From a virus (lineage: Duplodnaviria; Caudoviricetes): a stretch of 36,297 nucleotides of DNA. The DNA is taken from the IMG/VR virus record IMGVR_UViG_3300044606_000119, positions 1 through 36,297 of that record; one strand, given 5' to 3'. The stretch's first letter is position 1. Each line of letters begins with the position of its first letter. Shown piece after piece: positions 1 to 36,297 of this stretch. The position numbers were made by a program, and so were the translations under genes. The notes under the pieces were generated by a model. That model was not told the origin of the DNA and ran no database searches. It was given only the letters and a program-made list of their open reading frames with translations.

Positions 1-149
1 TTACAGTTTTTTGAAACGGGCATTTCAGAAATCTGAAACGGCTCATCTGCTAACCCATTGATATTGCTGCGATTACAGTTTTTTGAAACGGGCATTTCAG
101 AAATCTGAAACGGCTCATCTGCTAACCCATTGATATTGCTGCGATTACA
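1..149. repeat. 72-bp tandem repeat (origin iterons), duplicated at 36149-36297 as circular assembly overlap
   Basis: Units 1-72 and 73-144 plus TTACA are identical to 36149-36297. Each unit holds two related 18-mers (TTACAGTTTTTTGAAACG and TTTCAGAAATCTGAAACG) and an IHF consensus (51-63, minus strand TATCAA-TGGG-TTA). Confidence 0.9.
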
Positions 150-2226: not shown

Positions 2227-2612
2227 CAGAACGGCTCCAGATCGCTCATCTCATCGGGTGGCGGCTGCTCTCCCTGGCCGCTCCCTGTGCTCTCCTTGCG
2301 CGAGAGAAAGCGCACATTACTCGCCACCACTTCCATCTTCTGCTTCTTCTGGCCCTCGTGCTCCCAGCGGCGCTCGCGCAGACGGCCTTCAACCAGAACC
2401 GGCCGGCCTTTGCTGAGATACTGCCCGCACGTCTCTGCCTGCCGGCCGAACACCACCGCATCAATAAAAAGCGTTTCCTCTTTGCTCTCATCTCCCTGCC
2501 TGTAGCGCGAATTCACCGCAATGGCAACGGTCGCAACCGGCGTACCACCCGGCGTATAGCGCACGTCAGGGTCTTTGGTCAGATTGCCGATCAGAATCAC
2601 CCGGTTAAACAT
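2226..2612 (-). CDS. ssb: Single-stranded DNA-binding protein
   Basis: MFNRVILIGNLTKDPDVRYT...VEGRL OB-fold; acidic tail DLEPF. Confidence 0.97.
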   Translation of the reverse strand: MFNRVILIGNLTKDPDVRYTPGGTPVATVAIAVNSRYRQGDESKEETLFIDAVVFGRQAETCGQYLSKGRPVLVEGRLRERRWEHEGQKKQKMEVVASNVRFLSRKESTGSGQGEQPPPDEMSDLEPF

Positions 2613-2859
2613 CCGCCGCACCCCCTTTCTTCAGAGGCTCCGAAACATATAATTTCTTGTCCGGAATCACCTCCACCTTTATGCCGTCCGCTAAATAATC
2701 AGCGATAGCCCGTTCAAATACCGCCACAGCGTCCCATCCCTCAGCTCCGGACTCATCGCGTTTTCTTTCGGCATCAGCAATACTTTCACAGCCTTCCGGT
2801 ATATCGAACTCCACTTCAGGCCAACCCTCAATCTCAGTAAACGTCACGCGCACGCGCAT
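2605..2859 (-). CDS. Hypothetical acidic protein
   Basis: GGGGAG SD before the ATG at 2859; coupled to ssb. Confidence 0.6.
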   Translation of the reverse strand: MRVRVTFTEIEGWPEVEFDIPEGCESIADAERKRDESGAEGWDAVAVFERAIADYLADGIKVEVIPDKKLYVSEPLKKGGAADV

Positions 2860-6698: not shown

Positions 6699-7793
6699 AT
6701 GGCCCGTTACAAAGTAGAGCGCTGCCGCGCCTGCGGCTACCGTCATAACGAACCAAAGCCCGGCAAAGTCAACAAGCCATGCCCGCGCTGCGGTACAGAA
6801 ATGTACTACTCAAAGAACTGGTACATCAGCTACCAGACCGAAGGCGTGAAGTACGTCGAAGCGGTCTCCCCGCGTGCCATGGATGCGGACGATGCCGTCT
6901 CCAAGCGCAAAGTGCAGATCCGCGAGAACCGCTTTTTCGACATCAAAGCTGATATACCTTGGCATAGCGCCGTCGAAAAACTCCGGAGCACATACAACCG
7001 CATCAAGAGCGCCACATGCCGCATGTATGAAAACAGCATTGCCCAGCTGGAAGCGCATGGCTTCAAGCGTTATCGCCTTACGGACCCCGACTTCCCCGAC
7101 CGGATCGCCGACTTCATCAGCCACCGGCAAAACCACGTAACAAACGCCAGCATCAACCGCGACCTTGCCACCCTCAAACGCATGGCAAAGCTCTGCAAAC
7201 TCTACGACCTGTTCAACGAAATCCGCATGCTCCCCGAGAACAACGAGCGCATACGGTACCTCACGGAAGCCGAGCAGGCAGCGCTGCTGCAGGCATGTGA
7301 AAGCCCGCAGATGCGCATGGCCGTGCTCATCGCGCTCAACACCGGATTGCGCGCCGACGGCGTATATAAAATGATGTGGGAGCACATCGATTTCCAAACC
7401 ATGACGATCACGCGCCAGGTCAAGCGCGACAAGCAGATCAACATACCGCTGACACCGCAGCTTGCCCACGAACTCAAGGAATATCGCAAACAGAGCATCC
7501 TGTCAAAATACGTCTTTCCCAGCCCCGTGAAAAGCGGCGAATCCATCCGGAGCGACAACCGGCGAGGCTTCAAAAACGCCTGCACCCGAGCGGGCATAAC
7601 CGACTTTCGCTTTCACGACCTCCGCCATACCTTTGCCACATGGTTTTTGTACCGCACCCGCGACAAGCGGGCCCTGCAGGAAATACTCGGCCATAGCGAC
7701 AGCCGCATGACCGACCGCTACGCACATATCCTCGACGAACACAAACGCGAAGCCATGCAGAAATTCGCAGACGCTGCGGCAGGAAATACATGA
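6699..7793 (+). CDS. int: Tyrosine integrase with N-terminal zinc ribbon
   Basis: Catalytic TGLR, HDLRH, LGH and RY motifs; N-terminal CRAC...CPRC; AAGGAG SD. Confidence 0.96.
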   Translation: MARYKVERCRACGYRHNEPKPGKVNKPCPRCGTEMYYSKNWYISYQTEGVKYVEAVSPRAMDADDAVSKRKVQIRENRFFDIKADIPWHSAVEKLRSTYNRIKSATCRMYENSIAQLEAHGFKRYRLTDPDFPDRIADFISHRQNHVTNASINRDLATLKRMAKLCKLYDLFNEIRMLPENNERIRYLTEAEQAALLQACESPQMRMAVLIALNTGLRADGVYKMMWEHIDFQTMTITRQVKRDKQINIPLTPQLAHELKEYRKQSILSKYVFPSPVKSGESIRSDNRRGFKNACTRAGITDFRFHDLRHTFATWFLYRTRDKRALQEILGHSDSRMTDRYAHILDEHKREAMQKFADAAAGNT

Positions 7794-7817
7794 TCCTGCC
7801 TGCTTTATCAGGCGCGA

Positions 7818-8090
7818 TTTTGCTGACCGTTTGCTGACCGCCTGCTGACCGCTGCACCTCGTAACATATTGATTTATAAGACATCAAAACAGCAAGCAAG
7901 AAAATAACAATCTATTAGCAAGCTATTACAAATCAATAAGTTACCATCATTTTTCACAAAAAACCGTATTTTTTTTGCCTGATTCGTAATCATCCGAAAT
8001 GCTGCTATAAGTTACTGAATAATAACGATAATTATGATGATGAAATGTTTTGCTGACCGCTTTGCTGACTGCTTTGCGGTTTGCTGACGA
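7818..8090. mobile_element. attP site (arm repeats, IHF sites, core)
   Basis: TGCTGAC direct repeats at 7821, 7832, 7843 and 8051, 8063, 8082. Perfect IHF consensus at 7862-7874 (minus) and 7931-7943; weaker match at 8008-8020. Central TGA-TTCGTAA-TCA at 7980-7992. Directly downstream of int. Confidence 0.85.
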
Positions 8091-8091
8091 T

Positions 8092-8167
8092 GCCGAAGTA
8101 GCTCAGCTGGTAGAGCAGCTCACTCGTAATGAGCAGGTCGACGGTTCAAATCCGTTCTTCGGCTCCA
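8092..8167 (+). tRNA. tRNA-Thr(CGT), complete with encoded CCA
   Basis: Acceptor GCCGAAG/CTTCGGC; D arm GCTC/GAGC; anticodon arm GCTCA-CTCGTAA-TGAGC; T arm GACGG-TTCAAAT-CCGTT; 76 nt. Confidence 0.97.
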
Positions 8168-8173
8168 CTGCAC

Positions 8174-8203
8174 AAAAAAGGCAGGTCCTCGTGACCTGCC
8201 TTT
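8174..8203 (-). terminator. Intrinsic terminator of the lysis/late transcript (possibly bidirectional)
   Basis: AAAGGCAGGTC-CTCGT-GACCTGCCTTT hairpin; T6 tail on the minus strand; lies between the convergent tRNA and lysis genes. Confidence 0.85.
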
Positions 8204-8223
8204 GCTGTCTGGTGGATCAGGGC

Positions 8224-8424
8224 CTATCGCATTGCATCAATCGCCCGTGCACGATCAGCCTCTGCAATGATCTCGTCACTTGGCCGGAGCCTGCATGCTT
8301 GCAGCCGTTTGATTTCGTCGCTGATATCCTGCGGCTCGCCGCTTCTGATGACGCTGAAAATCTTCATGCCGAGATCGAGCACGACGGGCGCGAGCTGGAG
8401 CGCTGCCGTAACATTCAGTATCAT
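8224..8424 (-). CDS. Small lysis-cassette protein (66 aa)
   Basis: GGAGG SD; ATGA coupling; last gene before the terminator. Confidence 0.7.
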   Translation of the reverse strand: MILNVTAALQLAPVVLDLGMKIFSVIRSGEPQDISDEIKRLQACRLRPSDEIIAEADRARAIDAMR

Positions 8425-9806: not shown

Positions 9807-9855
9807 AGAAATAAACAATCTAATAGATTGTATCACTATCACCGCGCAAAGTCCA
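9807..9855 (-). promoter_or_regulatory. Lysis-cassette promoter with overlapping operator
   Basis: TGGACT-17 bp-TACAAT with extended TG; palindrome ACAATCTA-A-TAGATTGT at 9815-9831. Confidence 0.6.
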
Positions 9856-12800
9856 TGATGTCGAGATACTGCGGCCTGACCATGGTCGGTGTCTGCATGA
9901 TCATCCGGATATCCTGCGGTACGACTTTGTTGATCAGCTCGCGTTCAATCATCTGGCTATCAATCACCACGCCATTGTCGGCAGCCTTGGCAATACTGGT
10001 TGCCAGTCGGTCAGGATCACCCTGCATCAGCGCATCGATGATTCCGTCAACCGCCTGTTTGGTCTTGTCCTGATACTGCCTGGTGTAATACTGCCGCACC
10101 TGCTCAACATCGGCGAGCTTGGCTTCCTGCAGCGGCCTGAACCCGGTCCCCTTGGCGATCACATCAGACATCGTTGCATGATACTTCATCCGTTCGCGCC
10201 GGAGCGGATCAGCAACGTCCATGTTGTTCAGGGCCGTCTCGATCGCCGTCAGAATGTTGCCGACTGATGGTGTCAGTGACCGCACCAGTTCAGTCCTGTC
10301 GGCTCCTTTTTCGAGCACCTTTTTTGCCTGCAGCACGGTGCCGATCGTCGGACCGAGCAGGTCTGACGGACGCTTCGGCAGGATATCGCCGGTCCCGGTA
10401 CGCTTTGAAATATCCACACCCACCTGCGAACCCACCCCGTACAGAACGATCTCAGCCACGCGTTTCCGCGCACCGTCAGCGCCAGCCCATTGCATGAGAG
10501 AACCTTTCACTTCCAACAGCGGGTCCTTCCCGGTCAGCCATTCGATAAACTCGGCAAGCCCCTCAACCAGCGGAATTCCCATGACACCGGCAATCAACAG
10601 AACCGGCACCCAGAACTTGATATGCTCGGCCCCTTTCAGTCCCATGATCGCTTCGATCTGCTTAATGGCATACGGCTTGAATTGCCCCAGCAGACGGCCT
10701 GCCGGATTGCGAAAGATGCGGGCTGTATCGGCCACCGAGTAATTGAACTGCGTTTCATCGACCATGCGCCGCGCATACTGCCGCGCCTGCCGCTCAGCAT
10801 ACCCGAGTCCCGTGCGCGCATAGCGGTATGCGGCAAGTGCGGTAACAACCCGGTTCGCCCGCTCCGCTGCCTGAAAGAAGACCATCGAAGCTTGCACTGC
10901 CATGCCGCCCTTGTGTGCCATCGAATACCCGCCGGTATCACCCAGCCCCAGATCATACGGCACGCCGATCCGCCGGAGCACCGCACGGTCAGCGTCAGTC
11001 AGGTGCATGGCACGCTGCAGCGCCCATGCAAAATGCTCAGCCGGCAGCTTGGCGAAGGTATTCACCAGCTGCGTCAGGTTCACCACGCCGGCAGACAGGT
11101 TGAACAGGCCCAGCTTCATCACACCGGTCAAGTGCAGCAGCTTGTTCACCGTCCAGATCGTCGGCCGCTCAGTACGGACAAACGCGCCGAGATACCGCTT
11201 CATCGAGGCATCGATCAAGTCCTCCACCATTCCGGGAGCGCCATTCAGATCATTGATATATTCCTGCACATACCGGGCAATGTTCCTGTCCCGGAGCGCC
11301 TGATCCCCGCGCCCCAGCTCCACCCCGAAATCCTTTTCAAACTTTGGCACAACCCGCGCCTTGAAATCGTCCAGCGCCAGATACCGGGCAGTGGAATCGT
11401 AGTAATGTTTCAGGATATCGTGCAGATCGTCCCGGACAAAGCCGCTCTGCCCCGAGCGTTTCATTGCCGGTCCGAACATGCGCCGTCTTGATTTACGCCG
11501 CGCCACATCGTTCACCAGATCAAACGCCTGATCCCTATTTAGCGTAAATGCGTTTTCCACCTTCTCCACCAGCTTGAAGTAACTGGCATCCTTCAGAATC
11601 GTGCGCTGAATCACCTCATCCGGCAACCGGAACGTCTTCGGCTGTATCCGATACTGTTGCGCCGGATTCAGCGCATTGGCGAAGCTGACCGCTTCGCGCA
11701 GACTCCTGAATGTACCCGCAATACCCGCATTGTTTCCCTGAGCATCCACCTCGTACACATTCCAGTTTTCAAACAGATGCGGCACATGGCCCTCGCGTTT
11801 ACCCATTGCGCCGCCATATGCCTTCCGGTGCGCGCTCAGCATGCGCCATACCTGATTATGGAACGTCCGCCATGTCCCATATGCCTGCTGCACCGGAGCG
11901 CTCACCCCCATCTGCTGCAGCTCCGCCGGGCTGAATTCCTTGCCGAGCGCATCGCCCTCAAATGCGAGCGCAGTCAATTCCTCCATCAGCTCCCGGCGCC
12001 GGATCGGCCCAAATATCTCCTTCAGCTTGTCATGCGCGAGCGCACGCAGACGGTCCTGCTTGAGCACCGCGTTTTTGCCGTGCACCACATAATACCTTGC
12101 CGGTCCCTCGATGCGGCCCGGCGATGCCAGCAGCGACTTGACAAAGCCCAGATCATGCGGCCGGTTCTGCACTGCGACATTGGCAGCGGCCTTCGGATTG
12201 ATCGATCTGAGCAGCCGCACCGCAGCATCATAGAGCTGCGACATCCCCATAAAATCGAGCGTCACCACCGATGATCCGCCCCGGCTCCGCTCCGGCATCA
12301 TCACATCGGTCACCGGCCGGTGCTTCGTCAGTCGTTCAAATACGGCAGGAGCCTCATCGCCGGCCGGCACAAACCAGCGCGTTTCGTACTGCACCCGTTC
12401 GCTGAACAGGCCGGCGCGCTGCAGCTCCGCCGCATACGGATACAGACTTTCGCTGGCGATCAGCTCCACGCGGCGCTCGCCAGCCACACGGGCCCGGCGC
12501 ACCTTCCAGCCGTTAGCCAGCATGATCGTAGCGCCATCGTCAAGAATCATCCGTATGGCATTGTCCGGAGACACCGCTTCTTTCGTGCGGTTTGCCCCGA
12601 GCCGCCGGAGCGTTTCATCGATCACCCGGTTGGGGATTTCCCGGCCGATCAACCTGCGGCCGTCATCCGTCTGCACCCGCACCACGCGGGTCCGTCCTGC
12701 AGACAGCCGATCCCAGATCGGCAGCAACGCGCCGATTATCAGATGCACCCGCTCGCTCCGGTATTGCGGCACATCGGCGGATGCCTTTTCCCAGAGCGCT

Positions 12801-15800
12801 TCGGCATCATGCAGCGCAACCGGCTCCCAGCCGTCCTGCTCCAGACGGTAATCAGGCATAACCTGTTCGCGCCCCTTTTCCGGCCCGACCAGCTTGACCT
12901 CGCCCGTGACGAGTCCATACTCATCCGTTCTGCTGCCATAATCCCGCACCGCCCAGATGCGGCCGCTCTTGCGGTTACGATAGAACCCCCTGAATTTGAC
13001 CATGTTCGCAGCATCAGTGAAGGAAACGAGCTTGTTCTTGTGCTTGACCTCCAGCTGCACATAGCTGGTAACCGCTCCGGTTTCCGGCTGCGTATAAACC
13101 GGCTTTTCCTCGACAATGGACACCGCATCGGCCTTCAGGTTTTCCATGCCGATATCCAGCTCTCCTGTAGCGATCGCCAGCTCCACATTTTTTTCGAGAC
13201 GTTCGTAAAATTCGTTGAATACATGGTTCTGCACATCGATCTGCAGCGACAACAGGCGGTTCAGAAACTGCGGCACATCCGGCAGTTTAGTGCTGTTGAG
13301 ATTACCGTTCCGGTCGATCATGCCGTCCAGTCCCATCATCCGCATGGTGGAGGCCAAATCCAGCCCGGCAATAGCATGGTTATGCAGATCACGGATGAAC
13401 TGCTCAATCGCATCGTTTGCGTATACACTTTCGAGATTGTCCTTTTCGCTGAAGAGTCCCTGCGCCCCCGCGTCGCGCTGTCCGCGCGTCATTGCCCCGA
13501 GCTGATTCAGCCGCCGGGCGATCGACGAGAGAAAGCGCCGCTGCCCCTGCAGATCGGTCGTCACCAGCACATAATGCGGAGCCTGCGCCTGATTCGTCCG
13601 GTGCGTGCGGCCGAACCCCTGCACCGCCTTGTCGGCGCGCCACCCCGGCTGGATCAGATAATGAATGCGCTTGCGCCGGTTCTGGACCGTATTATCAGCG
13701 TGGAAACTGCGGCCGGTACTGCCGGCATCAGAAAAGACAAGGATACGCCGCTTGTCCTGCTGAAACTCTGCGGCTTCCTTTCCTGCGACGTGAGCGCTCC
13801 GGCGCTCCACAACCGTCTTGGTTTTGCCGCTCTCATCGGTCACGCGCACAATACGCTGCGTGCGGCCTGTTACTTCCGCTACCTGCTCGGACCCGAAATA
13901 GCCCAGAATATACTCAAGCGGCCCATCCGGCACCTTGAGACTGCCGAGCTGGTCGAGCAGCCGCTCCCGCATGGCAATCGCCTCAGCGCTCTGCACCGGA
14001 TTGCCATTGGAATCCTCTGCCGGCACAAAGCGCACCTCGCCGTCCGGTCCCATCACTTCCTGATAGACTTGCGTAGGAAATGCGTGTTCCAGGTACTGCA
14101 TCAGCGCCTCGCGCGGAGTCAGGTCGAGGTCCTCAAGATCGCCATCCTCATCCTTCACCTTTGCGTGCTGCCGTTTCTGCGTTGCCTCATTGGTATTGAC
14201 CAGCTGCAGCACGACCGCGTGGCCCGCATCGAGGTTCCGCTGGATATCCGACAGCACCGACGGCATCTGCATGGACGTAATGATCTGATTGAAAAACCGC
14301 TGATGCGCACCCCAGAACTGCGCCAGTGCCGCGCTCTTGGCCTTACTGTTTGAGCCCTGATTGGTCACCTGCAGCGCTTCATGGATGTTCTGCAGCACGA
14401 TCTGCCATGCCTCAGCAAGAGTATCGTAGATCGCCCGTTGCTCCGGTGTGAGCGCATGCTCAAGGCGGCCATAGGTAACATCATCGTAGGACAGTGACCG
14501 GGCATCATACACACCCATCGCCTTCATGTCGCGCGCCACCACTTCCATCGCAGCCAGCCCGCCAGAGGCGATCTTGTCGATAAAGTCCCGCTTGTTTGCA
14601 AATGCAGTGCCTTCACCCCAGAGCCCGAGCCGGTCAGCATACGCCAGATTGCGCACTTCAGTCGCACCGGTAGCGCTCACATAGACTACGCGGGCATTCG
14701 GCACCCGCCGCTGCAGCTCCATGCCTGCCAGCGCCTGCAGCGACGGCTTGGTCGATCCGCGTTTGCCCCGCATCGAGATGGCATTCTGCATATTATGGGC
14801 TTCGTCAAAGACCAGCACCCCGTCGAAATCATCGCCCAGCCATTGAATCAGCTGCTCCAGACGCGACTGCTTCGCGCCTTTTTTCTGCGCAAGCGCAGAG
14901 CCGGTATTGTTCGCTTCCGATCCGGTCGATATGAGCTTGTACGTGGTGAAGATGATGCCGTCCGTGGCCGCAATGTCCATACCGGCCTTGGTTTTGGCCT
15001 GCGGTACCAGCTTCTCAGGATCACCGCCGATATCCTTCCAGTCGCGCACCGCATCCATCACCAGCGCCTGACGCTCGGACACCCAGACCGCTTTTTTTCT
15101 GCCCTGATTGAAATTGTCGAGAATGATGCCGGATATCTCCCGGCCCTTGCCCACGCCGGTACCATCGCCGATAAAATATCCTTTACGCGTTCCGTCCGGC
15201 AGCGTCTGCTGGTGCGCCTGCCCGGCGTAGACAATCGCCTCCAGCTGCGCATCCGAAAACGCACCGCGCTCGATCAGTTTCCGGGAAAGGGTAGGGATAT
15301 AGGCAGGTGTCGGCGGTTCAACCGAAGCCATGGCCGCGCTCTGCACGAGCTTGCCGGGATGGGTCTTGGCTCCGGGTATTCTGACCTTTGCCGGCCGGTA
15401 CGTCTCAAATATGGCATCCGTCAGCTCGCCGGCGGCAGCCTTCGGATGTCCGGCAGCAATCTCAACCGTTATGCCCGGTTCGGGCTCTAGCCCTCCAGCT
15501 GCATCTCCCGGTAATCCGTCAGCAGGCGGTCGATCGACATCACTGCGTGCAGCTGTTCGGTCAACAGGCTCGCCGCTTCCTGCGGGCTGCGCTTGCGGAG
15601 ATCGCCCGCCACCACGTCCGGACCGTCGCCGCTGCGTTCCTCCGGCGGCCCCATCAGCAGGTAATCCAGCACCGCCTGCTGATCCTCCTCCTGCTGCAGC
15701 ACGTACAGGAAGTCCTCCATCATCCGCCGCTGATACCGGAAGTACGGTTCGTAATCCGTCCGCTCCAGATTCCACTGAATCAGCTGCAGCACGTACAGGC

Positions 15801-18800
15801 TGGTCAGTTCTGCTTTTACGCCCAGCGCCTGCAGGTGTTTGAGCGCTTCGCGGTTGAGCGGCAGGTTGTTGAGCTTCTTGATCTGCTGAAATGTCGCTGC
15901 GTTCATTGCGTATCCTCCCGAGCGCCGGAAGTGCATCGAGCACATCCTCATAGCGCTCCTTGATTACAGTATCGCCTGATGCCGGCACCTTGTCAATCAC
16001 CAGAATGCGGTTATCATAGGTAGTGCCGTACTTTTCATATCCCTTGCCGGAGAGCTCGATGATCGCGCGGAACGCATACTGTTTCTCGATCGTCGCAAAC
16101 CAGTCCCGCACCGCCCGGCTGTCACCGAGCTTCCACTTGCCGATCAGCGCCACCAGACGGCCCCCCGGCTCCAGCCGCTGCAACGCCTGATCGAGATGCT
16201 TGATCACATTGGCGCTGTCCCGCTGGCCCGGCACGCGGCCGGCCGTAGCAGAGAAGGGCGGATTCATCAGCACCACGGTCGGCTTGACTTCGGGCGGCAG
16301 GATATTGTGCAGCTGCTCGGCGTTTTCCGTAAAGACCGCAGCATAGCCCTGATCTTTGAGCAGCGCGGCGCGGCGCGGCGAAAGCTCGTTCACATAGACC
16401 TTGTCAACGTCAGCGCTTTTCGCCCACGACGCAAGGCCGCCGACACCGGCGGAGGGTTCCAGCACGGTATCGGAGCGGTTCAGATTCGCCGTCCATGCCA
16501 TTGCATACGCAAGGTCTGGCGGCGTGCTGAACTGCTGAAACTCATCCGTCTCGGCAGTGCGCAGACCGGACTGAGACGGAATCTTCTCCAGAATGACGCT
16601 GCGGATACGGCTTACATGGTATGCCGCTTCGGTAGCCAGATCGGTCGTAACGGCCGCGCGCGGCTGCTCAGCAATGAACTGGTTAATGCCAAGCTCAAGC
16701 GCATCAAACGCATCCTTCGGCGTATATTTGCCTTCGGACTTGCGGCCGCCGTATGCCTCGTTGGCAACGTCCCAGAGCTCTTTCTTGGTGAACGTCTGTC
16801 CCGTGGTCAGCTGGCGCTGCACCCAGTCAGCAATCATCATCGACGGATCGCCCTTGATCTGCTCAGGCTCCGCCGGAGCGGGTTGCTGCTTTTCACCTTC
16901 GGCGATCACTGGCTTTTCGGGTTCGGCTGCCGGACGTTCGGCAGCTTCATAGTACGGGTTATTGTAAGCATTCAATGTTTTGACCGATCCGGAGCTGTCC
17001 CTGATCGTAGCCATGCCATTACGATCCGGATTGATTACCTCATAAACCGTCCCGTCATACACATCGCGCACATAATCGCCCCGCCGGAAGGTGTGCAGGT
17101 TTACACCTATCGGTTCTGGCGCTTCGATCCGAGGGGATGCGTCTGGTGTTACTTCTTGTTGTTCAGGAACGGATGGAAGTTCGGACTTTCGGCCGCTGCG
17201 TGAAGCGCTTCGATTGTTCTTTGGTGAAAGGATTTTTTCGGTGCGGGCTCTGATTTCGTCTGCTGCTGCGGCAAGGTGCTTGCTGGTGATTGGGTCTGTT
17301 CGCTCATAATGACCTCCTTCGTTTTTAGTATACTCCGTATGCATGAGCAAGTCAAACAATGCCTGATCCGCAATGGTGAAATTGCCGCCGCTGCCCGAGA
17401 ACACCAGACGCGGCGAGCTGCCATCAGCATTGTTGTCGCGCAGGAGGAATTCCACATTCGGGTTATCCCGGTACCGGCGGAACATTTCAATAAACGTTGG
17501 CAATGATCGGTTCGCACCCTTGATGGTTGCCTCTTCAGGCACCGGTCGCACATGCTTGCCATCGCGTTTGTAGAGCTCGTCGCGTATGCCGATACGTACC
17601 CGTGCAGTGACAGGATCAACATACATCATCGACAGATTAACCTTGCCGCCTTTGCTCAACACCTTTTCGACCATGCCGTTCAGCAGCGCAAAGTTTGTCC
17701 CCTGCGAATCGTATATGACATGCTTGTCCGTGTCCAGTGCTTTCTGCAACAGTTCCTTGGCATACGCTGATGATTCCTCGTGTGCCTCATTGGTCGGCTC
17801 CAGACGCATGCGTTCCTTGTAATGATCGGAATTCACCTCGACAAACTGGCTCCGCACTGCCGGGTCCAATGCCTCCAATAACGAGCCCTTGCCCGAGCCG
17901 CCCACGCCGAGCGTTGCGATCAGTTCCTGCGGAGTTTCAGCGGTCGCGGTCGGCCGACCGTGAAAATAGTAGGCATCTACCTCCGGCTTGGTCAGCTGTG
18001 CGTTTTTATCCTTGCGGAGCTTTGCGAGCGCCGACCGGTAAAACGGTTCATAATCAACCGTTTCCAGAGGCGCTTGCGGCTTCTCTGCCACGGCAGGCTT
18101 TCCGGGTAGTAGCGTCTGTTCACCCATGGGTTGCGGCGCAGCGGCCGCCGAGGCCTGCGGGCCCGGTTCCGCAGCCGCCGCTTCCGGAGCGGCCTGCTGC
18201 TGAGCGCGCAGGCCGGCCTGATACTGTTGTTTTGCCTGCTCGCCTTCAGCCAGAATAGCGTCCATTTCCCTCGTTGCCGCATCCGCAAACGGATCGAAGT
18301 CCACCGGCTTCAGCGTGACCGGTTTTTCCCCTGCCTGCGGTATGGGTTCGGTCGAAACAGGCGCTTCCTGAGCCTCTGGCGAAGCCGGTTTTTTCGGTAT
18401 CGTCTGTTCACCCATGGGTTGCGGCGCAGCGGCCGCCGAGGCCTGCGGGCCCGGTTCCGCAGCCGTCGCTTCCGGAGCGGCCTGCTCACCCGTGGCGCGC
18501 CGCCGGATCGCCTCCTGCTTGAAGGCAAGGGACATTTTCGCCAGATCAGCCTCTGAGAATCCCCGCTTCAGCATCGCATCGTAATTGGCGGCGAGCTCAT
18601 CAGGCGTAAGCGGCACCAGACCGCGTTCGTTGATCGTAGCCTTCCGGTACCACGTCGAATCCCTCACCGCCTGCATGCCGGCCTGCACCGGCCGCTTGGC
18701 AAACGGCGCACCGACCGCCGCCACCAGCGCAGCTCCCTCGATCGCCGCTTGCATCTGCGGATCGCGCGTCAATTTCTTTGCGCCATCTGCGACAACGGTC

Positions 18801-19333
18801 GCATAGACGGTAAACGGAAACGCCAGCAGTCCCTCGACAGTCTGGCCGTGAAACGTCTCGGCATGCGGTATGCTCTCTGCCCAGAACTGCTTGAGCGCGG
18901 CAGTCGAACCTGCCCAGTCCACCTCGCCGCGCGTCAGCTTCTGGCGCAGCACATCACCGATCCAGCCGGCCGCTCCCGCCGGAATCGCCACCGTTGCACC
19001 GACCAGACCGGCCATCGTCTCGCTGACCGGGTCGTGGGGCAGCTCCTCGCGCTGTCCGCTGGGCAGCGTGGTGGCATCGCCCTGATCGATCAGCTGATCA
19101 CCCTCCAGATACCGGGGCTTGGGTTTGACGTGCGGATTGACTTTTTCGAGCTGGATGCCAGCCTTGTCGAGCACCGATGGCGCGTAGTCAGTCGCAAAGG
19201 CCGCCGCTTCCGGCGGCAGCGCATCGGGATCATTGACCGGCGCAAACGGGTCGTAGTCTACCGGTCTCAGCGTCGGGGCAGCGGCGGCCGGATGAGCAAA
19301 CGGGTCGATGTCTACCGGTACCAGACGCGCCAT
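9839..19333 (-). CDS. Giant polyvalent internal virion protein (~3164 aa): Zeta-like P-loop kinase, N6-adenine MTase, Strawberry-notch SF2 helicase; DarB-like
   Basis: GVGGSGKG/NSDHYK/HEESS (Zeta-like); EPSAGVG and NPPF (MTase); GDGTGVGKG, DEAH, QGFGRTHR (Sno helicase). Located after the ejection proteins. Start MARLVPVD at 19333 follows the upstream stop at 19335. Confidence 0.9.
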   Translation of the reverse strand: MARLVPVDIDPFAHPAAAAPTLRPVDYDPFAPVNDPDALPPEAAAFATDYAPSVLDKAGIQLEKVNPHVKPKPRYLEGDQLIDQGDATTLPSGQREELPHDPVSETMAGLVGATVAIPAGAAGWIGDVLRQKLTRGEVDWAGSTAALKQFWAESIPHAETFHGQTVEGLLAFPFTVYATVVADGAKKLTRDPQMQAAIEGAALVAAVGAPFAKRPVQAGMQAVRDSTWYRKATINERGLVPLTPDELAANYDAMLKRGFSEADLAKMSLAFKQEAIRRRATGEQAAPEATAAEPGPQASAAAAPQPMGEQTIPKKPASPEAQEAPVSTEPIPQAGEKPVTLKPVDFDPFADAATREMDAILAEGEQAKQQYQAGLRAQQQAAPEAAAAEPGPQASAAAAPQPMGEQTLLPGKPAVAEKPQAPLETVDYEPFYRSALAKLRKDKNAQLTKPEVDAYYFHGRPTATAETPQELIATLGVGGSGKGSLLEALDPAVRSQFVEVNSDHYKERMRLEPTNEAHEESSAYAKELLQKALDTDKHVIYDSQGTNFALLNGMVEKVLSKGGKVNLSMMYVDPVTARVRIGIRDELYKRDGKHVRPVPEEATIKGANRSLPTFIEMFRRYRDNPNVEFLLRDNNADGSSPRLVFSGSGGNFTIADQALFDLLMHTEYTKNEGGHYERTDPITSKHLAAAADEIRARTEKILSPKNNRSASRSGRKSELPSVPEQQEVTPDASPRIEAPEPIGVNLHTFRRGDYVRDVYDGTVYEVINPDRNGMATIRDSSGSVKTLNAYNNPYYEAAERPAAEPEKPVIAEGEKQQPAPAEPEQIKGDPSMMIADWVQRQLTTGQTFTKKELWDVANEAYGGRKSEGKYTPKDAFDALELGINQFIAEQPRAAVTTDLATEAAYHVSRIRSVILEKIPSQSGLRTAETDEFQQFSTPPDLAYAMAWTANLNRSDTVLEPSAGVGGLASWAKSADVDKVYVNELSPRRAALLKDQGYAAVFTENAEQLHNILPPEVKPTVVLMNPPFSATAGRVPGQRDSANVIKHLDQALQRLEPGGRLVALIGKWKLGDSRAVRDWFATIEKQYAFRAIIELSGKGYEKYGTTYDNRILVIDKVPASGDTVIKERYEDVLDALPALGRIRNERSDISADQEAQQPAAQPRSAQTPAGAGRKSRTDQPVRAAADSVESGADGLRTVLPVSAADDGGLPVRAAAGGGSAGGAGLPADGAAGGTQRRRSGRGGGRSPQAQPAGSGEPVDRTAARSDVDRPPADGLPGDAAGGLEPEPGITVEIAAGHPKAAAGELTDAIFETYRPAKVRIPGAKTHPGKLVQSAAMASVEPPTPAYIPTLSRKLIERGAFSDAQLEAIVYAGQAHQQTLPDGTRKGYFIGDGTGVGKGREISGIILDNFNQGRKKAVWVSERQALVMDAVRDWKDIGGDPEKLVPQAKTKAGMDIAATDGIIFTTYKLISTGSEANNTGSALAQKKGAKQSRLEQLIQWLGDDFDGVLVFDEAHNMQNAISMRGKRGSTKPSLQALAGMELQRRVPNARVVYVSATGATEVRNLAYADRLGLWGEGTAFANKRDFIDKIASGGLAAMEVVARDMKAMGVYDARSLSYDDVTYGRLEHALTPEQRAIYDTLAEAWQIVLQNIHEALQVTNQGSNSKAKSAALAQFWGAHQRFFNQIITSMQMPSVLSDIQRNLDAGHAVVLQLVNTNEATQKRQHAKVKDEDGDLEDLDLTPREALMQYLEHAFPTQVYQEVMGPDGEVRFVPAEDSNGNPVQSAEAIAMRERLLDQLGSLKVPDGPLEYILGYFGSEQVAEVTGRTQRIVRVTDESGKTKTVVERRSAHVAGKEAAEFQQDKRRILVFSDAGSTGRSFHADNTVQNRRKRIHYLIQPGWRADKAVQGFGRTHRTNQAQAPHYVLVTTDLQGQRRFLSSIARRLNQLGAMTRGQRDAGAQGLFSEKDNLESVYANDAIEQFIRDLHNHAIAGLDLASTMRMMGLDGMIDRNGNLNSTKLPDVPQFLNRLLSLQIDVQNHVFNEFYERLEKNVELAIATGELDIGMENLKADAVSIVEEKPVYTQPETGAVTSYVQLEVKHKNKLVSFTDAANMVKFRGFYRNRKSGRIWAVRDYGSRTDEYGLVTGEVKLVGPEKGREQVMPDYRLEQDGWEPVALHDAEALWEKASADVPQYRSERVHLIIGALLPIWDRLSAGRTRVVRVQTDDGRRLIGREIPNRVIDETLRRLGANRTKEAVSPDNAIRMILDDGATIMLANGWKVRRARVAGERRVELIASESLYPYAAELQRAGLFSERVQYETRWFVPAGDEAPAVFERLTKHRPVTDVMMPERSRGGSSVVTLDFMGMSQLYDAAVRLLRSINPKAAANVAVQNRPHDLGFVKSLLASPGRIEGPARYYVVHGKNAVLKQDRLRALAHDKLKEIFGPIRRRELMEELTALAFEGDALGKEFSPAELQQMGVSAPVQQAYGTWRTFHNQVWRMLSAHRKAYGGAMGKREGHVPHLFENWNVYEVDAQGNNAGIAGTFRSLREAVSFANALNPAQQYRIQPKTFRLPDEVIQRTILKDASYFKLVEKVENAFTLNRDQAFDLVNDVARRKSRRRMFGPAMKRSGQSGFVRDDLHDILKHYYDSTARYLALDDFKARVVPKFEKDFGVELGRGDQALRDRNIARYVQEYINDLNGAPGMVEDLIDASMKRYLGAFVRTERPTIWTVNKLLHLTGVMKLGLFNLSAGVVNLTQLVNTFAKLPAEHFAWALQRAMHLTDADRAVLRRIGVPYDLGLGDTGGYSMAHKGGMAVQASMVFFQAAERANRVVTALAAYRYARTGLGYAERQARQYARRMVDETQFNYSVADTARIFRNPAGRLLGQFKPYAIKQIEAIMGLKGAEHIKFWVPVLLIAGVMGIPLVEGLAEFIEWLTGKDPLLEVKGSLMQWAGADGARKRVAEIVLYGVGSQVGVDISKRTGTGDILPKRPSDLLGPTIGTVLQAKKVLEKGADRTELVRSLTPSVGNILTAIETALNNMDVADPLRRERMKYHATMSDVIAKGTGFRPLQEAKLADVEQVRQYYTRQYQDKTKQAVDGIIDALMQGDPDRLATSIAKAADNGVVIDSQMIERELINKVVPQDIRMIMQTPTMVRPQYLDIMDFAR
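15487..15906 (-). CDS. Nested +1-frame gene (139 aa, helical, acidic) inside the giant protein gene
   Basis: GGGAGG SD 7 nt before the ATG; strongly GC3-biased codons (CTG, CAG, GAG); the giant's frame here is an A/G/R/P-rich linker. Confidence 0.8.
   Translation of the reverse strand: MNAATFQQIKKLNNLPLNREALKHLQALGVKAELTSLYVLQLIQWNLERTDYEPYFRYQRRMMEDFLYVLQQEEDQQAVLDYLLMGPPEERSGDGPDVVAGDLRKRSPQEAASLLTEQLHAVMSIDRLLTDYREMQLEG
17149..17307 (-). CDS. Nested +1-frame small gene (52 aa) directly after the Zeta-like domain
   Basis: AAGGAGGT SD 4 nt before the ATG; MSEQTQSP...KKSFHQRTIEALHAAAESPNFHPFLNNKK. Confidence 0.6.
   Translation of the reverse strand: MSEQTQSPASTLPQQQTKSEPAPKKSFHQRTIEALHAAAESPNFHPFLNNKK
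18113..18486. repeat. 86-bp direct repeat (18113-18198 and 18401-18486) in the giant gene
   Basis: One mismatch; 288 bp apart; encodes QAAPEAxAAEPGPQASAAAAPQPMGEQT twice. Confidence 0.9.
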
Positions 19334-19334
19334 A

Positions 19335-20429
19335 TCACTGCACCACCTGCGACCACCCGCTCCTGCTCCTGGGGTCGCGCACATACCATTTGCCATCGGG
19401 TGCCTTCTGCGCGCCGGGCACCGGCGGGAGCTCCACCGGGGGGGTCTGCCGCGGCACAACCGGCGCAGCAGGCGCAACCGCCGATGCGCCCTGCTTTTCC
19501 TGCAGCTTGTTTTTCGTAAACTGCTTGATACCGTAGGGGTCATTCATGTCGGACTTCTGGCTCTTCCACTGTTCCAGCGTCAGCTCCGGCTGGCCTGTTT
19601 TGCGCCGGTCGGCATTGATCTGGTCGAGTTCTTTCATGTCCGGCGTGCGGCTTTCTTCTTTCGGTCCTGCAGACGGACGCGAAGCGTTCGCGATGCGTAC
19701 CTTGCGCGTCTCCCACTCGGAGCTGATCTCCGCATCCGACATGCCATTGGCTTTCATTGCCTTGTAAAAGAGCGCAAAATCGCTCGACGGTTCAGTGCCT
19801 TTTTGCCAGGCGAGATAATCCTTGAGCGTCATAGCACCTTCCGGGGCCGGCATAAAGGTCGGTTTGCCCTGATCGTCCACCCCGCTTTGCATGAAGAGCT
19901 TGCCGTTCTGGAAATACCCCTGTTTGGTCACCCACCTGCCGTCAGCGTCCTGCTGCACAACGGCCTCAAACGACAGCGCCCCGTTGCCTTTGGCAAAGCC
20001 GCTCAGCGGCGGCAGGCCGGCCTGCACGAGCAGCGGATTGATCCGCTCGATAACCGCCTGACCGCGCTCCCGGTCGGGCAGGGGATTGCCGTTCTGATCG
20101 ACGAGGCTGTCCCAGAGGGCGTTTGCATTGGCAAGGCTTTCCTTCATCGTCTCCTGCTGGAATTTCAGCGCCTCGCGCTTGTCCTTCGCGGCTTCGATCT
20201 CCGCCTTTTTCTGCAGATACGTGTTGATCTGCGCCTGCATGTCATCGTCCCACTGCTCGCTCTTTGCCATGTCAGCGCCCATCATGGCATAGATAAACGG
20301 CTGGGCATAGCCGGCATTTTCAGCGACCTTGCTTGAGATCAGGAGCTTCCGGTCATACGGATTCGACCGGCCGCCATACAGAGACGCAAGCCCCGCGCCG
20401 GGTACTCTTGGTGTTGCGATATCGCTCAT
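19335..20429 (-). CDS. Internal virion / DNA ejection protein (putative)
   Basis: Position between the pilot protein and the giant protein; helical, charged; C-terminal GAQKAPDGKWYV motif. Confidence 0.7.
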   Translation of the reverse strand: MSDIATPRVPGAGLASLYGGRSNPYDRKLLISSKVAENAGYAQPFIYAMMGADMAKSEQWDDDMQAQINTYLQKKAEIEAAKDKREALKFQQETMKESLANANALWDSLVDQNGNPLPDRERGQAVIERINPLLVQAGLPPLSGFAKGNGALSFEAVVQQDADGRWVTKQGYFQNGKLFMQSGVDDQGKPTFMPAPEGAMTLKDYLAWQKGTEPSSDFALFYKAMKANGMSDAEISSEWETRKVRIANASRPSAGPKEESRTPDMKELDQINADRRKTGQPELTLEQWKSQKSDMNDPYGIKQFTKNKLQEKQGASAVAPAAPVVPRQTPPVELPPVPGAQKAPDGKWYVRDPRSRSGWSQVVQ

Positions 20430-35529: not shown

Positions 35530-36297
35530 TTATTTTTTTGCAGAAAAAAGATTATCGATTCTGGCTCTCAAATCCGAACGGCGCGGATCATCGCCCCGCA
35601 GCAGCCGAAGCTCGGAAGTCAGAGAAACAAACTCATCGTAGGACTGAACAGACCAAACATCAGCCGAAAGCAGATCAACAATCCGCTCCTTTGTCCTGAT
35701 TGCCTTACGCCGCTGCTGCTCCCGCTCTGGAGCCACACCAACCAACGACCGATACAAACCAGCAATATCATCCTGCAGTTCCCTTAAAAGGGCCTCTTTA
35801 CGCCGCGCATCCGAAGCAGATATCTCCCGATGATCCACCCAATCACGCCAATTCTGAAACCAGCTTTTCCCCGTCTTGGGACTTTTCCACGGATTCGCGG
35901 CCAGATGCGCAAGATAATTCGTGAGAGCCTGAGATATCGCAGACAAATCATCCTCCGAACAAACAGACTCACGGAACGCCTCCTCTGCCTCGGCCTTACC
36001 GTCTTTGAGCGGATACCGTTTCCAGAGCGTCTCGAAATCGACATAAAAATATATATATTTTTTTTTATTTTCTTTATTTTTCTTTATTGCAGTAATAGGA
36101 GCGTTACAGTTTTTTGAAACGATTATTTCAGAAATCTGAAACGAATCGTTACAGTTTTTTGAAACGGGCATTTCAGAAATCTGAAACGGCTCATCTGCTA
36201 ACCCATTGATATTGCTGCGATTACAGTTTTTTGAAACGGGCATTTCAGAAATCTGAAACGGCTCATCTGCTAACCCATTGATATTGCTGCGATTACA
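35530..36297 (-). CDS. Replication initiator, C-terminal part (full protein 364 or 388 aa depending on repeat copy number)
   Basis: In frame with 1..476; repeat-encoded linker, KKNKENKKK tract, FETLWKRYPLKDGKAEA domain. Confidence 0.88.
   Translation of the reverse strand, partial: CNRSNINGLADEPFQISEMPVSKNCNRSNINGLADEPFQISEMPVSKNCNDSFQISEIIVSKNCNAPITAIKKNKENKKKYIYFYVDFETLWKRYPLKDGKAEAEEAFRESVCSEDDLSAISQALTNYLAHLAANPWKSPKTGKSWFQNWRDWVDHREISASDARRKEALLRELQDDIAGLYRSLVGVAPEREQQRRKAIRTKERIVDLLSADVWSVQSYDEFVSLTSELRLLRGDDPRRSDLRARIDNLFSAKK
36044..36297. other. Replication origin: AT-rich melt region plus iterons inside the initiator gene
   Basis: AT-rich 36044-36088 next to a ~46-bp partial unit (36103) and 72-bp units (36149, 36221); lambda-ori-like layout. 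Confidence 0.8.

What the first reader, a model, noticed from the sequence alone, without database searches (positions are those of the whole stretch)
7978..8167. Disrupt-and-replace integration: attP has only an anticodon loop, and a recoded full tRNA-Thr(CGT) follows it
Seen: the centre of the arm/IHF array is TGA-TTCGTAA-TCA, a Thr(CGT) anticodon stem-loop mimic, and no tRNA 3' half follows it. About 100 bp downstream, in the same orientation, is a complete tRNA with the same anticodon but a different stem and loop (GCTCA-CTCGTAA-TGAGC). Known: many tyrosine integrases cross over in the 7-nt anticodon loop and usually rebuild the tRNA; tRNA-dependent lysogeny has been described in some actinobacteriophages. 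Inference: integration destroys the host tRNA-Thr(CGT), the phage copy lands downstream of the host tRNA promoter and replaces it, and the altered anticodon arm stops it being an Int target.
Basis: partly seen in the sequence, partly recalled or inferred. Interest (0 to 1): 0.75.

Follow-up and report, generated by a model that had tools for sequence, protein, structure and literature searches.

The report
Phage splits, replaces host threonine tRNA
This sludge phage is found inserted in the middle of a bacterial threonine tRNA gene, leaving it in two halves, and it carries a whole, slightly different spare copy 99 bases further on that is likely switched on by the host gene's own promoter, a new example of a trick published in 2024 for mycobacterial phages.

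Summary
Confirmed, with junction evidence. The window is a circular 36-kb phage: integrase, arm repeats, a 14-base core (7979-7992) equal to a tRNA-Thr(CGT) anticodon arm, arm repeats, then a whole tRNA-Thr(CGT) (8092-8167). Of 6 public runs laid, 2 hold the intact attP, 2 hold both prophage junctions and 1 holds the right junction. They break exactly at the core into the 5' and 3' halves of a host tRNA-Thr(CGT) (only 16 host letters seen per side). The likely host class is Thermodesulfovibrionia (Nitrospirota). There, five other loci show a broken half plus replacement, with at least two integrase lineages, beside elements that rebuild the gene. The replacement's arm differs from the broken one in 5 of 6 loci, but such arms are natural alleles elsewhere. 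Host-promoter use and immunity to integrase are inferred. Lethality is not shown: tRNA-Thr(UGU) was found in 5 of 5 genomes. It works like tRNA-dependent lysogeny (PMC10865867), and published phage Gaia has the same layout. The scan found this layout before on other DNA. New member of a known kind.

The parts
6699..7793 (+). tyrosine integrase, 364 aa, with R218 K242 H306 R309 H332 Y341 invariant and an N-terminal CxxC...CxxC motif
   Evidence: PF00589 E 4.6e-31; phrog_1; invariant columns of 30 homologues; reading these residues as the catalytic set is recalled
7797..7814 (+). weak terminator-like hairpin behind int
   Evidence: 1 found; 0.4 expected in shuffles
7818..7854 (+). P arm: three arm-type direct repeats
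   Evidence: homologous P arm beside a 59% identical integrase in G402:C90
7862..7943 (.). two exact IHF-consensus sites in inverted orientation (7862-7874 -, 7931-7943 +)
   Evidence: (I4); consensus recalled
7979..7992 (+). attP common core, 14 bases, centred on the 7-base anticodon loop (7983-7989) of host tRNA-Thr(CGT)
   Evidence: contigs of X2, X4 and X12 leave the window exactly at 7979 and/or 7992 into tRNA halves
7993..8091 (+). P' arm, 99 bases: AT-rich part, then three arm-type repeats (8049-8090) ending 2-3 bases before the tRNA; no sigma70 or extended -10 motif found
8092..8167 (+). replacement tRNA-Thr(CGT); anticodon arm 8118-8134 differs from the host arm at positions 30, 32 and 40
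8173..8205 (.). terminator-like hairpin behind the tRNA, with a T-run on the - strand, facing the convergent lysis genes
   Evidence: (I2), fold; function inferred

Best explanation
The phage inserts at a 14-base core in the anticodon arm of a host tRNA-Thr(CGT) gene, splits that gene, and places its own whole tRNA-Thr(CGT) 99 bases behind the host 5' half, where the host promoter likely transcribes it. Shown: the junction positions, the split gene, and the order and orientation at attL (host 5' half, core, P' arm, phage tRNA) and attR (int, P arm, core, host 3' half). Inferred: (1) the integrase at 6699-7793 makes the cut, around the 7-base loop, as an arm- and IHF-dependent lambda-type enzyme; (2) the host's extended -10 promoter reads through the broken half and the arm, and the tRNA is processed out of that leader; (3) the spare is a poor integrase target, because it changes the G at -2 of both core half-sites and the first base of the loop; (4) the host is a Thermodesulfovibrionia bacterium; (5) the spare restores fitness for ACG decoding, more likely than it rescues an outright lethal loss.
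For:: in X2 and X4 (two studies) one contig follows the window to 7992 and goes on with 16 letters of a tRNA 3' half, and another begins with 16 letters of a tRNA D arm and joins at 7979. X12 (third study) shows the same right junction; X1 and X7 span the intact attP. The two 16-mers flank the core in intact tRNA-Thr(CGT) genes in 17 of 80 loci, among them L183, which matches genome G407 at 99%. G402 has a 59% identical integrase with a homologous P arm, core and only the host 3' half. G441 holds a related phage whose contig starts inside a non-host-type tRNA-Thr 3' half at the same place. Other break-and-replace loci: G490 (whole 64-kb prophage, junctions share the 7-base loop plus one base), L212, L240, G421, G391. 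Promoter: TGnTAnnnT lies within 100 bases upstream of 35 of 42 native loci (0.20 in shuffles) and of 3 of 3 element-borne 5' halves, but not in the window's P' arm; 0 sigma70-like sites in 7700-8300. Arm: 89 of 125 class alleles carry the core (hand count), against 0 of the 5 replacements behind a core-type host half (window, G490, L212, L240, G421).
Against: Only 16 host-specific letters are seen at each junction, below the 31 letters on both sides that the read tool asks for a bridging record; no host contig with this very prophage was found (0). No RNA data bear on the promoter. Three other replacements (L240, L212, G421) have a -35/-10-like motif of their own 5-8 bases upstream, so adjacency does not imply promoter capture, and a weaker motif in 7993-8047 is not excluded. 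G391's replacement keeps the anticodon arm of the gene it replaces, and the G441 phage tRNA keeps the TCA next to the loop. tRNA-Thr(UGU) is present in 5 of 5 genomes checked; the 10 essential E. coli tRNA units in PMC11480407 Table 1 include no CGU-anticodon unit; G613 has a broken half and no Thr(CGT) found, though it is an incomplete assembly.
Confidence: 0.8

Rival explanations
1. Same split and replacement, but the phage tRNA has its own promoter in the AT-rich part of the P' arm (or is read from int), and lies next to attP only so that it travels with the integration module.
For: Fionnbharth's tRNA has its own strong promoter (PMC10865867). L240, L212 and G421 replacements have -35/-10-like motifs of their own. 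7993-8047 is AT-rich and holds partial -10 hexamers.
Against: No sigma70 site at 9 of 12 and no TGnTAnnnT, the motif that native loci and element-borne 5' halves carry. The arm repeats run to 2-3 bases before the tRNA.
Confidence: 0.3
2. The altered arm is a captured foreign allele with no role in avoiding integrase; nothing was recoded.
For: 36 of 125 class alleles lack the core; 12 of 14 such alleles examined sit in plain loci with no broken half upstream. Contigs of other organisms match the window tRNA's middle part with 1-8 differences. G391 keeps the arm.
Against: 0 of 5 replacements behind a core-type host half carry the core, although 71% of class alleles do. The changes hit half-site positions conserved among each element's known sites: -2 in the window, -3/-4 in G490, -4/-5 in L212, -3 to -5 in L240. 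Capture and selection are not exclusive.
Confidence: 0.3
3. Strict tRNA-dependent lysogeny: loss of the host tRNA-Thr(CGT) kills the cell, so the phage tRNA is required for any lysogen.
For: Thr(CGT) is single-copy in 123 of the 124 genomes with a match. 7 of 8 broken loci seen end with a whole Thr(CGT), replaced or rebuilt (window, G490, L212, L240, G421, G391 replaced; G460/G299 type rebuilt, counted once; G613 not).
Against: Thr(UGU) in 5 of 5 genomes can read ACG by wobble in E. coli (recalled); no Thr(CGU) unit is among the essential E. coli units.
Confidence: 0.3
4. The junction contigs are assembly chimeras through a 14-base match with abundant tRNA genes, and the phage integrates elsewhere or into a rebuilt tRNA.
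For: Only 16 foreign letters per side; tRNA genes of many organisms tangle the assembly graph here.
Against: 14 shared bases are fewer than a 31-letter word, so the contigs need words that span the core with both flanks (word length taken from the tool text). The letters are identical in three studies, the two ends come from one tRNA allele, and G402 and G490 show the same junction types on long contigs.
Confidence: 0.04

Closest known systems
tRNA-dependent lysogeny (Guerrero-Bustamante and Hatfull 2024, PMC10865867; parts 1-5 of 8 of the text read, plus passages; figures not held, supplements not opened)
   Same: Tyrosine integrase; core of 8-17 bp in a host tRNA gene; gene not rebuilt; phage tRNA of the same isotype.
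   Different: Likely host phylum Nitrospirota rather than Actinobacteria; target Thr(CGT), which has a wobble backup; in Fionnbharth the tRNA overlaps gene 37 and has its own measured promoter; requirement for viability not tested here.
Mycobacterium phage Gaia (cluster X, KJ567043), a case in that paper
   Same: int, arm repeats, a bare anticodon-loop 7-mer, arm repeats, then a whole tRNA-Leu(CAA) on the same strand 113 bases after the loop and 11 bases after the last arm repeat; the spare's loop also starts with C where the bare loop has T (placing Gaia's core at that 7-mer is my reading of the sequence).
   Different: Other host, isotype and integrase. The paper's main text notes only that the tRNA is 'downstream of Int'; the searched words showed no passage on host-promoter capture or on the altered arm.
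Sinorhizobium meliloti prophages like Mesorhizobium phage vB_MloP_Lo5R7ANS (PMC11476347, passages read)
   Same: Integration in the middle of tRNA-Leu(UAG), gene inactivated and replaced by a foreign-looking prophage tRNA of the same anticodon (at most 80.6% identical to the host's).
   Different: Position of the spare relative to att is not given in the passages seen; Alphaproteobacteria.
Canonical tRNA-targeting phages and islands that rebuild the gene
   Same: Crossover at the anticodon loop; seen at this same tRNA in L083 and L097 (3' half repeated) and in G460 and G299 (element-borne 5' half with its own promoter motif).
   Different: The window's attP carries neither half of the tRNA.

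Membership tests
tRNA-dependent lysogeny | tyrosine integrase with attP recombining at an attB that overlaps a host tRNA gene | tested here: met
   PF00589; junctions at 7979/7992 into tRNA-Thr(CGT) halves; that this integrase makes the cut is inferred from adjacency and from G402
tRNA-dependent lysogeny | short common core, so no functional tRNA at attL or attR | tested here: met
   14-base core; attL continues into the P' arm and attR is preceded by the P arm
tRNA-dependent lysogeny | [quoted passage not shown] | tested here: met
   tRNA-Thr(CGT) 8092-8167
tRNA-dependent lysogeny | disrupted host tRNA is essential and the phage tRNA is required for viable lysogens | not testable with these tools
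   single copy in 123 of 124 genomes, but Thr(UGU) in 5 of 5 and no CGU unit among the essential E. coli units
tRNA-dependent lysogeny | phage tRNA is expressed in the lysogen | not testable with these tools
   no raw-read RNA run was offered
canonical tRNA-rebuilding integration | attP carries the 3' (or 5') half of the tRNA, so the gene is restored at a junction | tested here: not met
   no half beside the core
lambda-type (arm- and IHF-dependent) attP | arm-type repeats on both sides of the core and IHF sites between them | tested here: met
   3 + 3 repeats and two exact IHF-consensus sites; binding not tested; consensus recalled

The most novel reading that the evidence does not exclude
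The attP is a promoter trap: the spare tRNA is silent in the free phage, is switched on only by integration behind the host tRNA promoter, and is shielded from its own integrase by changes at the core-binding bases. When such elements decay the spare stays as the host's only tRNA-Thr(CGT) (G421, perhaps G402), so phages turn over host tRNA alleles in Nitrospirota.
Probability: 0.4. Interest if true: 0.6.

Novelty: new member of a known kind. Interest (0 to 1): 0.42.

Why it matters
It extends break-and-replace integration to a likely Nitrospirota host with junction evidence from the same phage in three studies. It also shows three solutions at one tRNA gene: repeat the 3' half, bring the 5' half with a promoter, or break and replace (the last two within one class). 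The compact int-attP-tRNA cassette of about 1.5 kb makes two open points directly testable in a laboratory strain: whether integration itself turns the tRNA on, and whether the altered arm prevents self-targeting and tandem integration, which the 2024 paper only speculated on. Such prophages also escape island finders that look for a repeated tRNA half (inference).

Tried and rejected
Integrase as a single query in viral contigs: no relative. The alignment query gave only generic integrases of 26-42% identity in viral and genome contigs. The P'-side core stretch in metagenome contigs: 0. Architecture patterns in viral contigs: 0 and 2 chance hits without a tRNA. Core followed by a non-G base in viral contigs: 117 loci from 20 of 64 parts, none with an integrase. 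Host D-arm motif in the phylum of G004: 0 of 251 genomes. No CRISPR-spacer-like match to the window in 5 candidate host genomes. No listed run is on record as RNA; X16 stops at 7905 and tells nothing. Folding a model attL leader was inconclusive: the cloverleaf-forced and free folds differ by 0.3 kcal/mol and 31 of 60 shuffled arms also disturb the acceptor stem, so the idea that the altered arm avoids pairing with the broken half got no support. The idea that G402's tRNA arose by exact deletion at the native locus was not supported by upstream homology with L164. Two of the 6 hits (L369, L374) were dropped as chance matches without a tRNA 5' half. Paper searches for a published adjacent or promoter-capture description gave 0 papers; the library lacks most subscription papers, and the supplements of PMC10865867 were not opened.

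Full report
Observation. The window is the whole record G000 and has a 149-base direct terminal repeat, so it is a circular, excised or free phage genome with terminase, portal, capsid, tail and lysin genes. An integrase gene (6699-7793; PF00589) is followed by three arm-type repeats (7818-7854), two exact IHF-consensus sites (7862 -, 7931 +; consensus recalled), the 14-mer CTGATTCGTAATCA (7979-7992), an AT-rich stretch, three more arm repeats (8049-8090), a whole tRNA-Thr(CGT) (8092-8167) and a terminator-like hairpin facing the lysis genes. No tRNA half flanks the 14-mer.

Where it integrates. 20 listed runs from 12 studies, all sludge, wastewater, biogas or unlabelled metagenomes, hold the region; I laid 6. 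X1 and X7 have contigs across the intact attP. X2 and X4 have no such contig listed; instead one contig follows the window to 7992 and carries 16 further letters, and another carries 16 letters and joins at 7979. The letters are identical in both studies: a tRNA D arm before the core, and a variable loop plus T stem after it. X12 shows the same right junction; its P'-side contig starts at 8006 with no loose end. X16 is uninformative. So 2 of 6 runs show both junctions, 1 shows one, 2 show attP and 1 shows nothing. Caveat: 16 host letters are fewer than the 31 the tool asks for a bridging record. But 16 + 14 = 30 is what a contig end at a branch gives with 31-letter words, and such contigs need words that cover the whole core with both flanks (inference). 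In X4 the attL contig runs on to 8138, through the phage tRNA's anticodon arm.

Host. A scan with the host D-arm and core motif returned 80 metagenome loci: 75 intact tRNA-Thr(CGT), 3 cut by a contig end and 2 broken. 17 of the 80 carry both junction 16-mers, so the allele alone does not name the host. The integrase's closest named homologues are from Nitrospirota MAGs. In the class of G001 (record title of L146: Thermodesulfovibrionales; class name recalled), 2 of 201 genomes have a close integrase. G402 has int (59%), a homologous P arm, the core and only the host 3' half, then host genes. G441 holds a related phage at about 70% nucleotide identity, whose lysis-end contig begins inside a tRNA-Thr 3' half with a non-host stem; G441's own tRNA-Thr(CGT) is intact in the assembly. 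L183, with both 16-mers and the class's larC neighbourhood, matches G407 of the same family at 99%. The host class is therefore likely; the species is not fixed.

Relatives at the same gene. A pattern for broken 5' halves hit 6 of 390 genomes of the class; 2 were chance and 4 real. G490 holds a 64-kb prophage on one contig: 5' half, loop, 104 bases, replacement tRNA and a convergent integrase at one end; arm, loop and 3' half at the other, the junctions sharing the 7-base loop and one adjacent base. G460 and G299 rebuild the gene at the far end from an element-borne 5' half. G613 has no whole Thr(CGT) found (incomplete assembly). L212 and L240 are broken halves with a replacement 116 and 119 bases after the core. 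Of 14 non-core alleles fetched out of 36 (G402 was examined apart; two core-type loci were fetched with them), 2 had a broken half upstream: G421, with a mutated loop, a short spacer, nearly the same replacement as L212 and no integrase within 3 kb, a fixed remnant; and G391. L083 and L097, from other taxa, repeat the 3' half in the ordinary way. The window's integrase is 29-30% identical to those of G490 and L212, which are 51% identical to each other, so break-and-replace occurs in at least two integrase lineages at this gene.

The altered arm. Written towards the loop, the four core half-sites are TTGCCTGA, TCGGATGA, GCAGCTGA and CCTGCTGA; the last three bases are invariant. The phage tRNA has GCAGCTCA and CCTGCTCA, and its loop starts with C, not T. 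Mismatch in the overlap is usually harmful to tyrosine recombination (stated in PMC10865867). By hand count 89 of 125 Thr(CGT) alleles in 124 of 171 class genomes carry the core; none of the five replacements behind a core-type half does (L212 and G421 are not independent). Against: G391's replacement has the same arm as the broken gene; the G441 phage tRNA keeps the three bases next to the loop; and the alternative arms are native elsewhere in the class. 'Non-target allele, captured or drifted, probably kept by selection' fits better than 'recoded'. The window's exact arm occurs in 1 of the 125, in G402, the genome with the related attR; there it sits at the native locus with a similar hairpin behind it but no broken half or arm before it, which I cannot explain.

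The promoter. TGnTAnnnT lies within 100 bases upstream of 35 of 42 native loci (0.20 in shuffles) and of all 3 element-borne 5' halves, which need their own promoter. It is absent from the spacers of the window, G490, L212, L240 and G421; G391 has one poor match. L240, L212 and G421 have a -35/-10-like motif 5-8 bases before the tRNA; the window and G490 do not, and in the window the arm repeats end 2-3 bases before the tRNA. Host-promoter read-through is thus the best reading for this phage (about 0.6), but it rests on motif absence. Folding of the model leader was inconclusive.

Is the spare needed? Thr(CGT) is single-copy in 123 of 124 genomes with a match, and most broken loci end with a whole copy. 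But Thr(UGU) is present in 5 of 5 genomes checked, and none of the 10 essential E. coli tRNA units has a CGU anticodon (PMC11480407, passages with Table 1). The phage uses ACG for 137 of 370 Thr codons in 8 large ORFs. A fitness effect is more likely than lethality; this was not testable here.

Comparison with what is known. PMC10865867 (parts 1-5 of 8 read; passages) defines tRNA-dependent lysogeny. Three of its defining features are met here; the requirement for viability and expression could not be tested. Its case Gaia has the same anatomy: int, arm repeats, a bare loop 7-mer, arm repeats and a same-strand whole tRNA-Leu(CAA) 113 bases on, also with C for T at the first loop base (the location of Gaia's core is my reading). 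PMC11476347 (passages) reports a replaced tRNA-Leu(UAG) in S. meliloti; PMC12429752 (passages) points to it. Four searches found no paper describing promoter capture or the altered arm, within a library that lacks most subscription journals; the supplements of the 2024 paper were not opened. The scan's own notes report this layout on other DNA, including another Thr(CGT) phage; these are unchecked and were not used as support.

Verdict. Real, and well supported as split-and-replace integration: a new member of a known kind, in a likely new host phylum. Promoter trapping, self-immunity and fixation of the spare in hosts are the open and more interesting parts. Interest 0.42.

Noticed in passing
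G460:C34 4829-24020 (L370, L394); G299 (L371, L395); L415: Elements that break tRNA-Thr(CGT) but rebuild it at the far end from their own copy of the 5' half, preceded by an extended -10 motif: a third solution at the same gene. In G391 such an element-borne copy appears to have been broken in turn by a break-and-replace element.
   Followed up: partly
G421:C3 about 1011400-1011570 (L413): Decayed break-and-replace locus: broken half with a mutated loop, short spacer, replacement tRNA, no integrase within 3 kb; the spare is the only Thr(CGT) the pattern found in that genome.
   Followed up: partly
G402:C121 112-186 (L398) and C90 2627: A tRNA with the window's exact anticodon arm and a similar hairpin sits at the native locus with no broken half or arm, while an attR with a 59% identical integrase lies on another contig; possibly a locked prophage, possibly a mixed bin.
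   Followed up: partly
window 6699-6800: The integrase family has an invariant N-terminal CxxC...CxxC motif (C9, C12, C28, C31), a likely zinc ribbon before the arm-binding region.
   Followed up: no
window 9839-19543 (-): A 3234-aa protein with a Zeta-toxin-like kinase domain and Strawberry-notch-type helicase domains; the G490 prophage has a 3510-aa ORF.
   Followed up: no
window 2277-2634: A phage stretch 77-82% identical at DNA level to places in G407, G323, G441 and G361, a further hint of the host family.
   Followed up: no
window 7884-7896, 7924-7925: Strain variation clusters between the two IHF sites, while 7979-8119 shows no difference in the X2 and X4 contigs.
   Followed up: no
L171, L224: Metagenome loci with an array of 12 tRNA genes grouped by amino acid (Thr x3, Asp x2, Val x2, Ile x2, Met x3).
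   Followed up: no
window 1-149 and 36149-36297: 149-base terminal repeat that itself holds a 72-base repeat.
   Followed up: no
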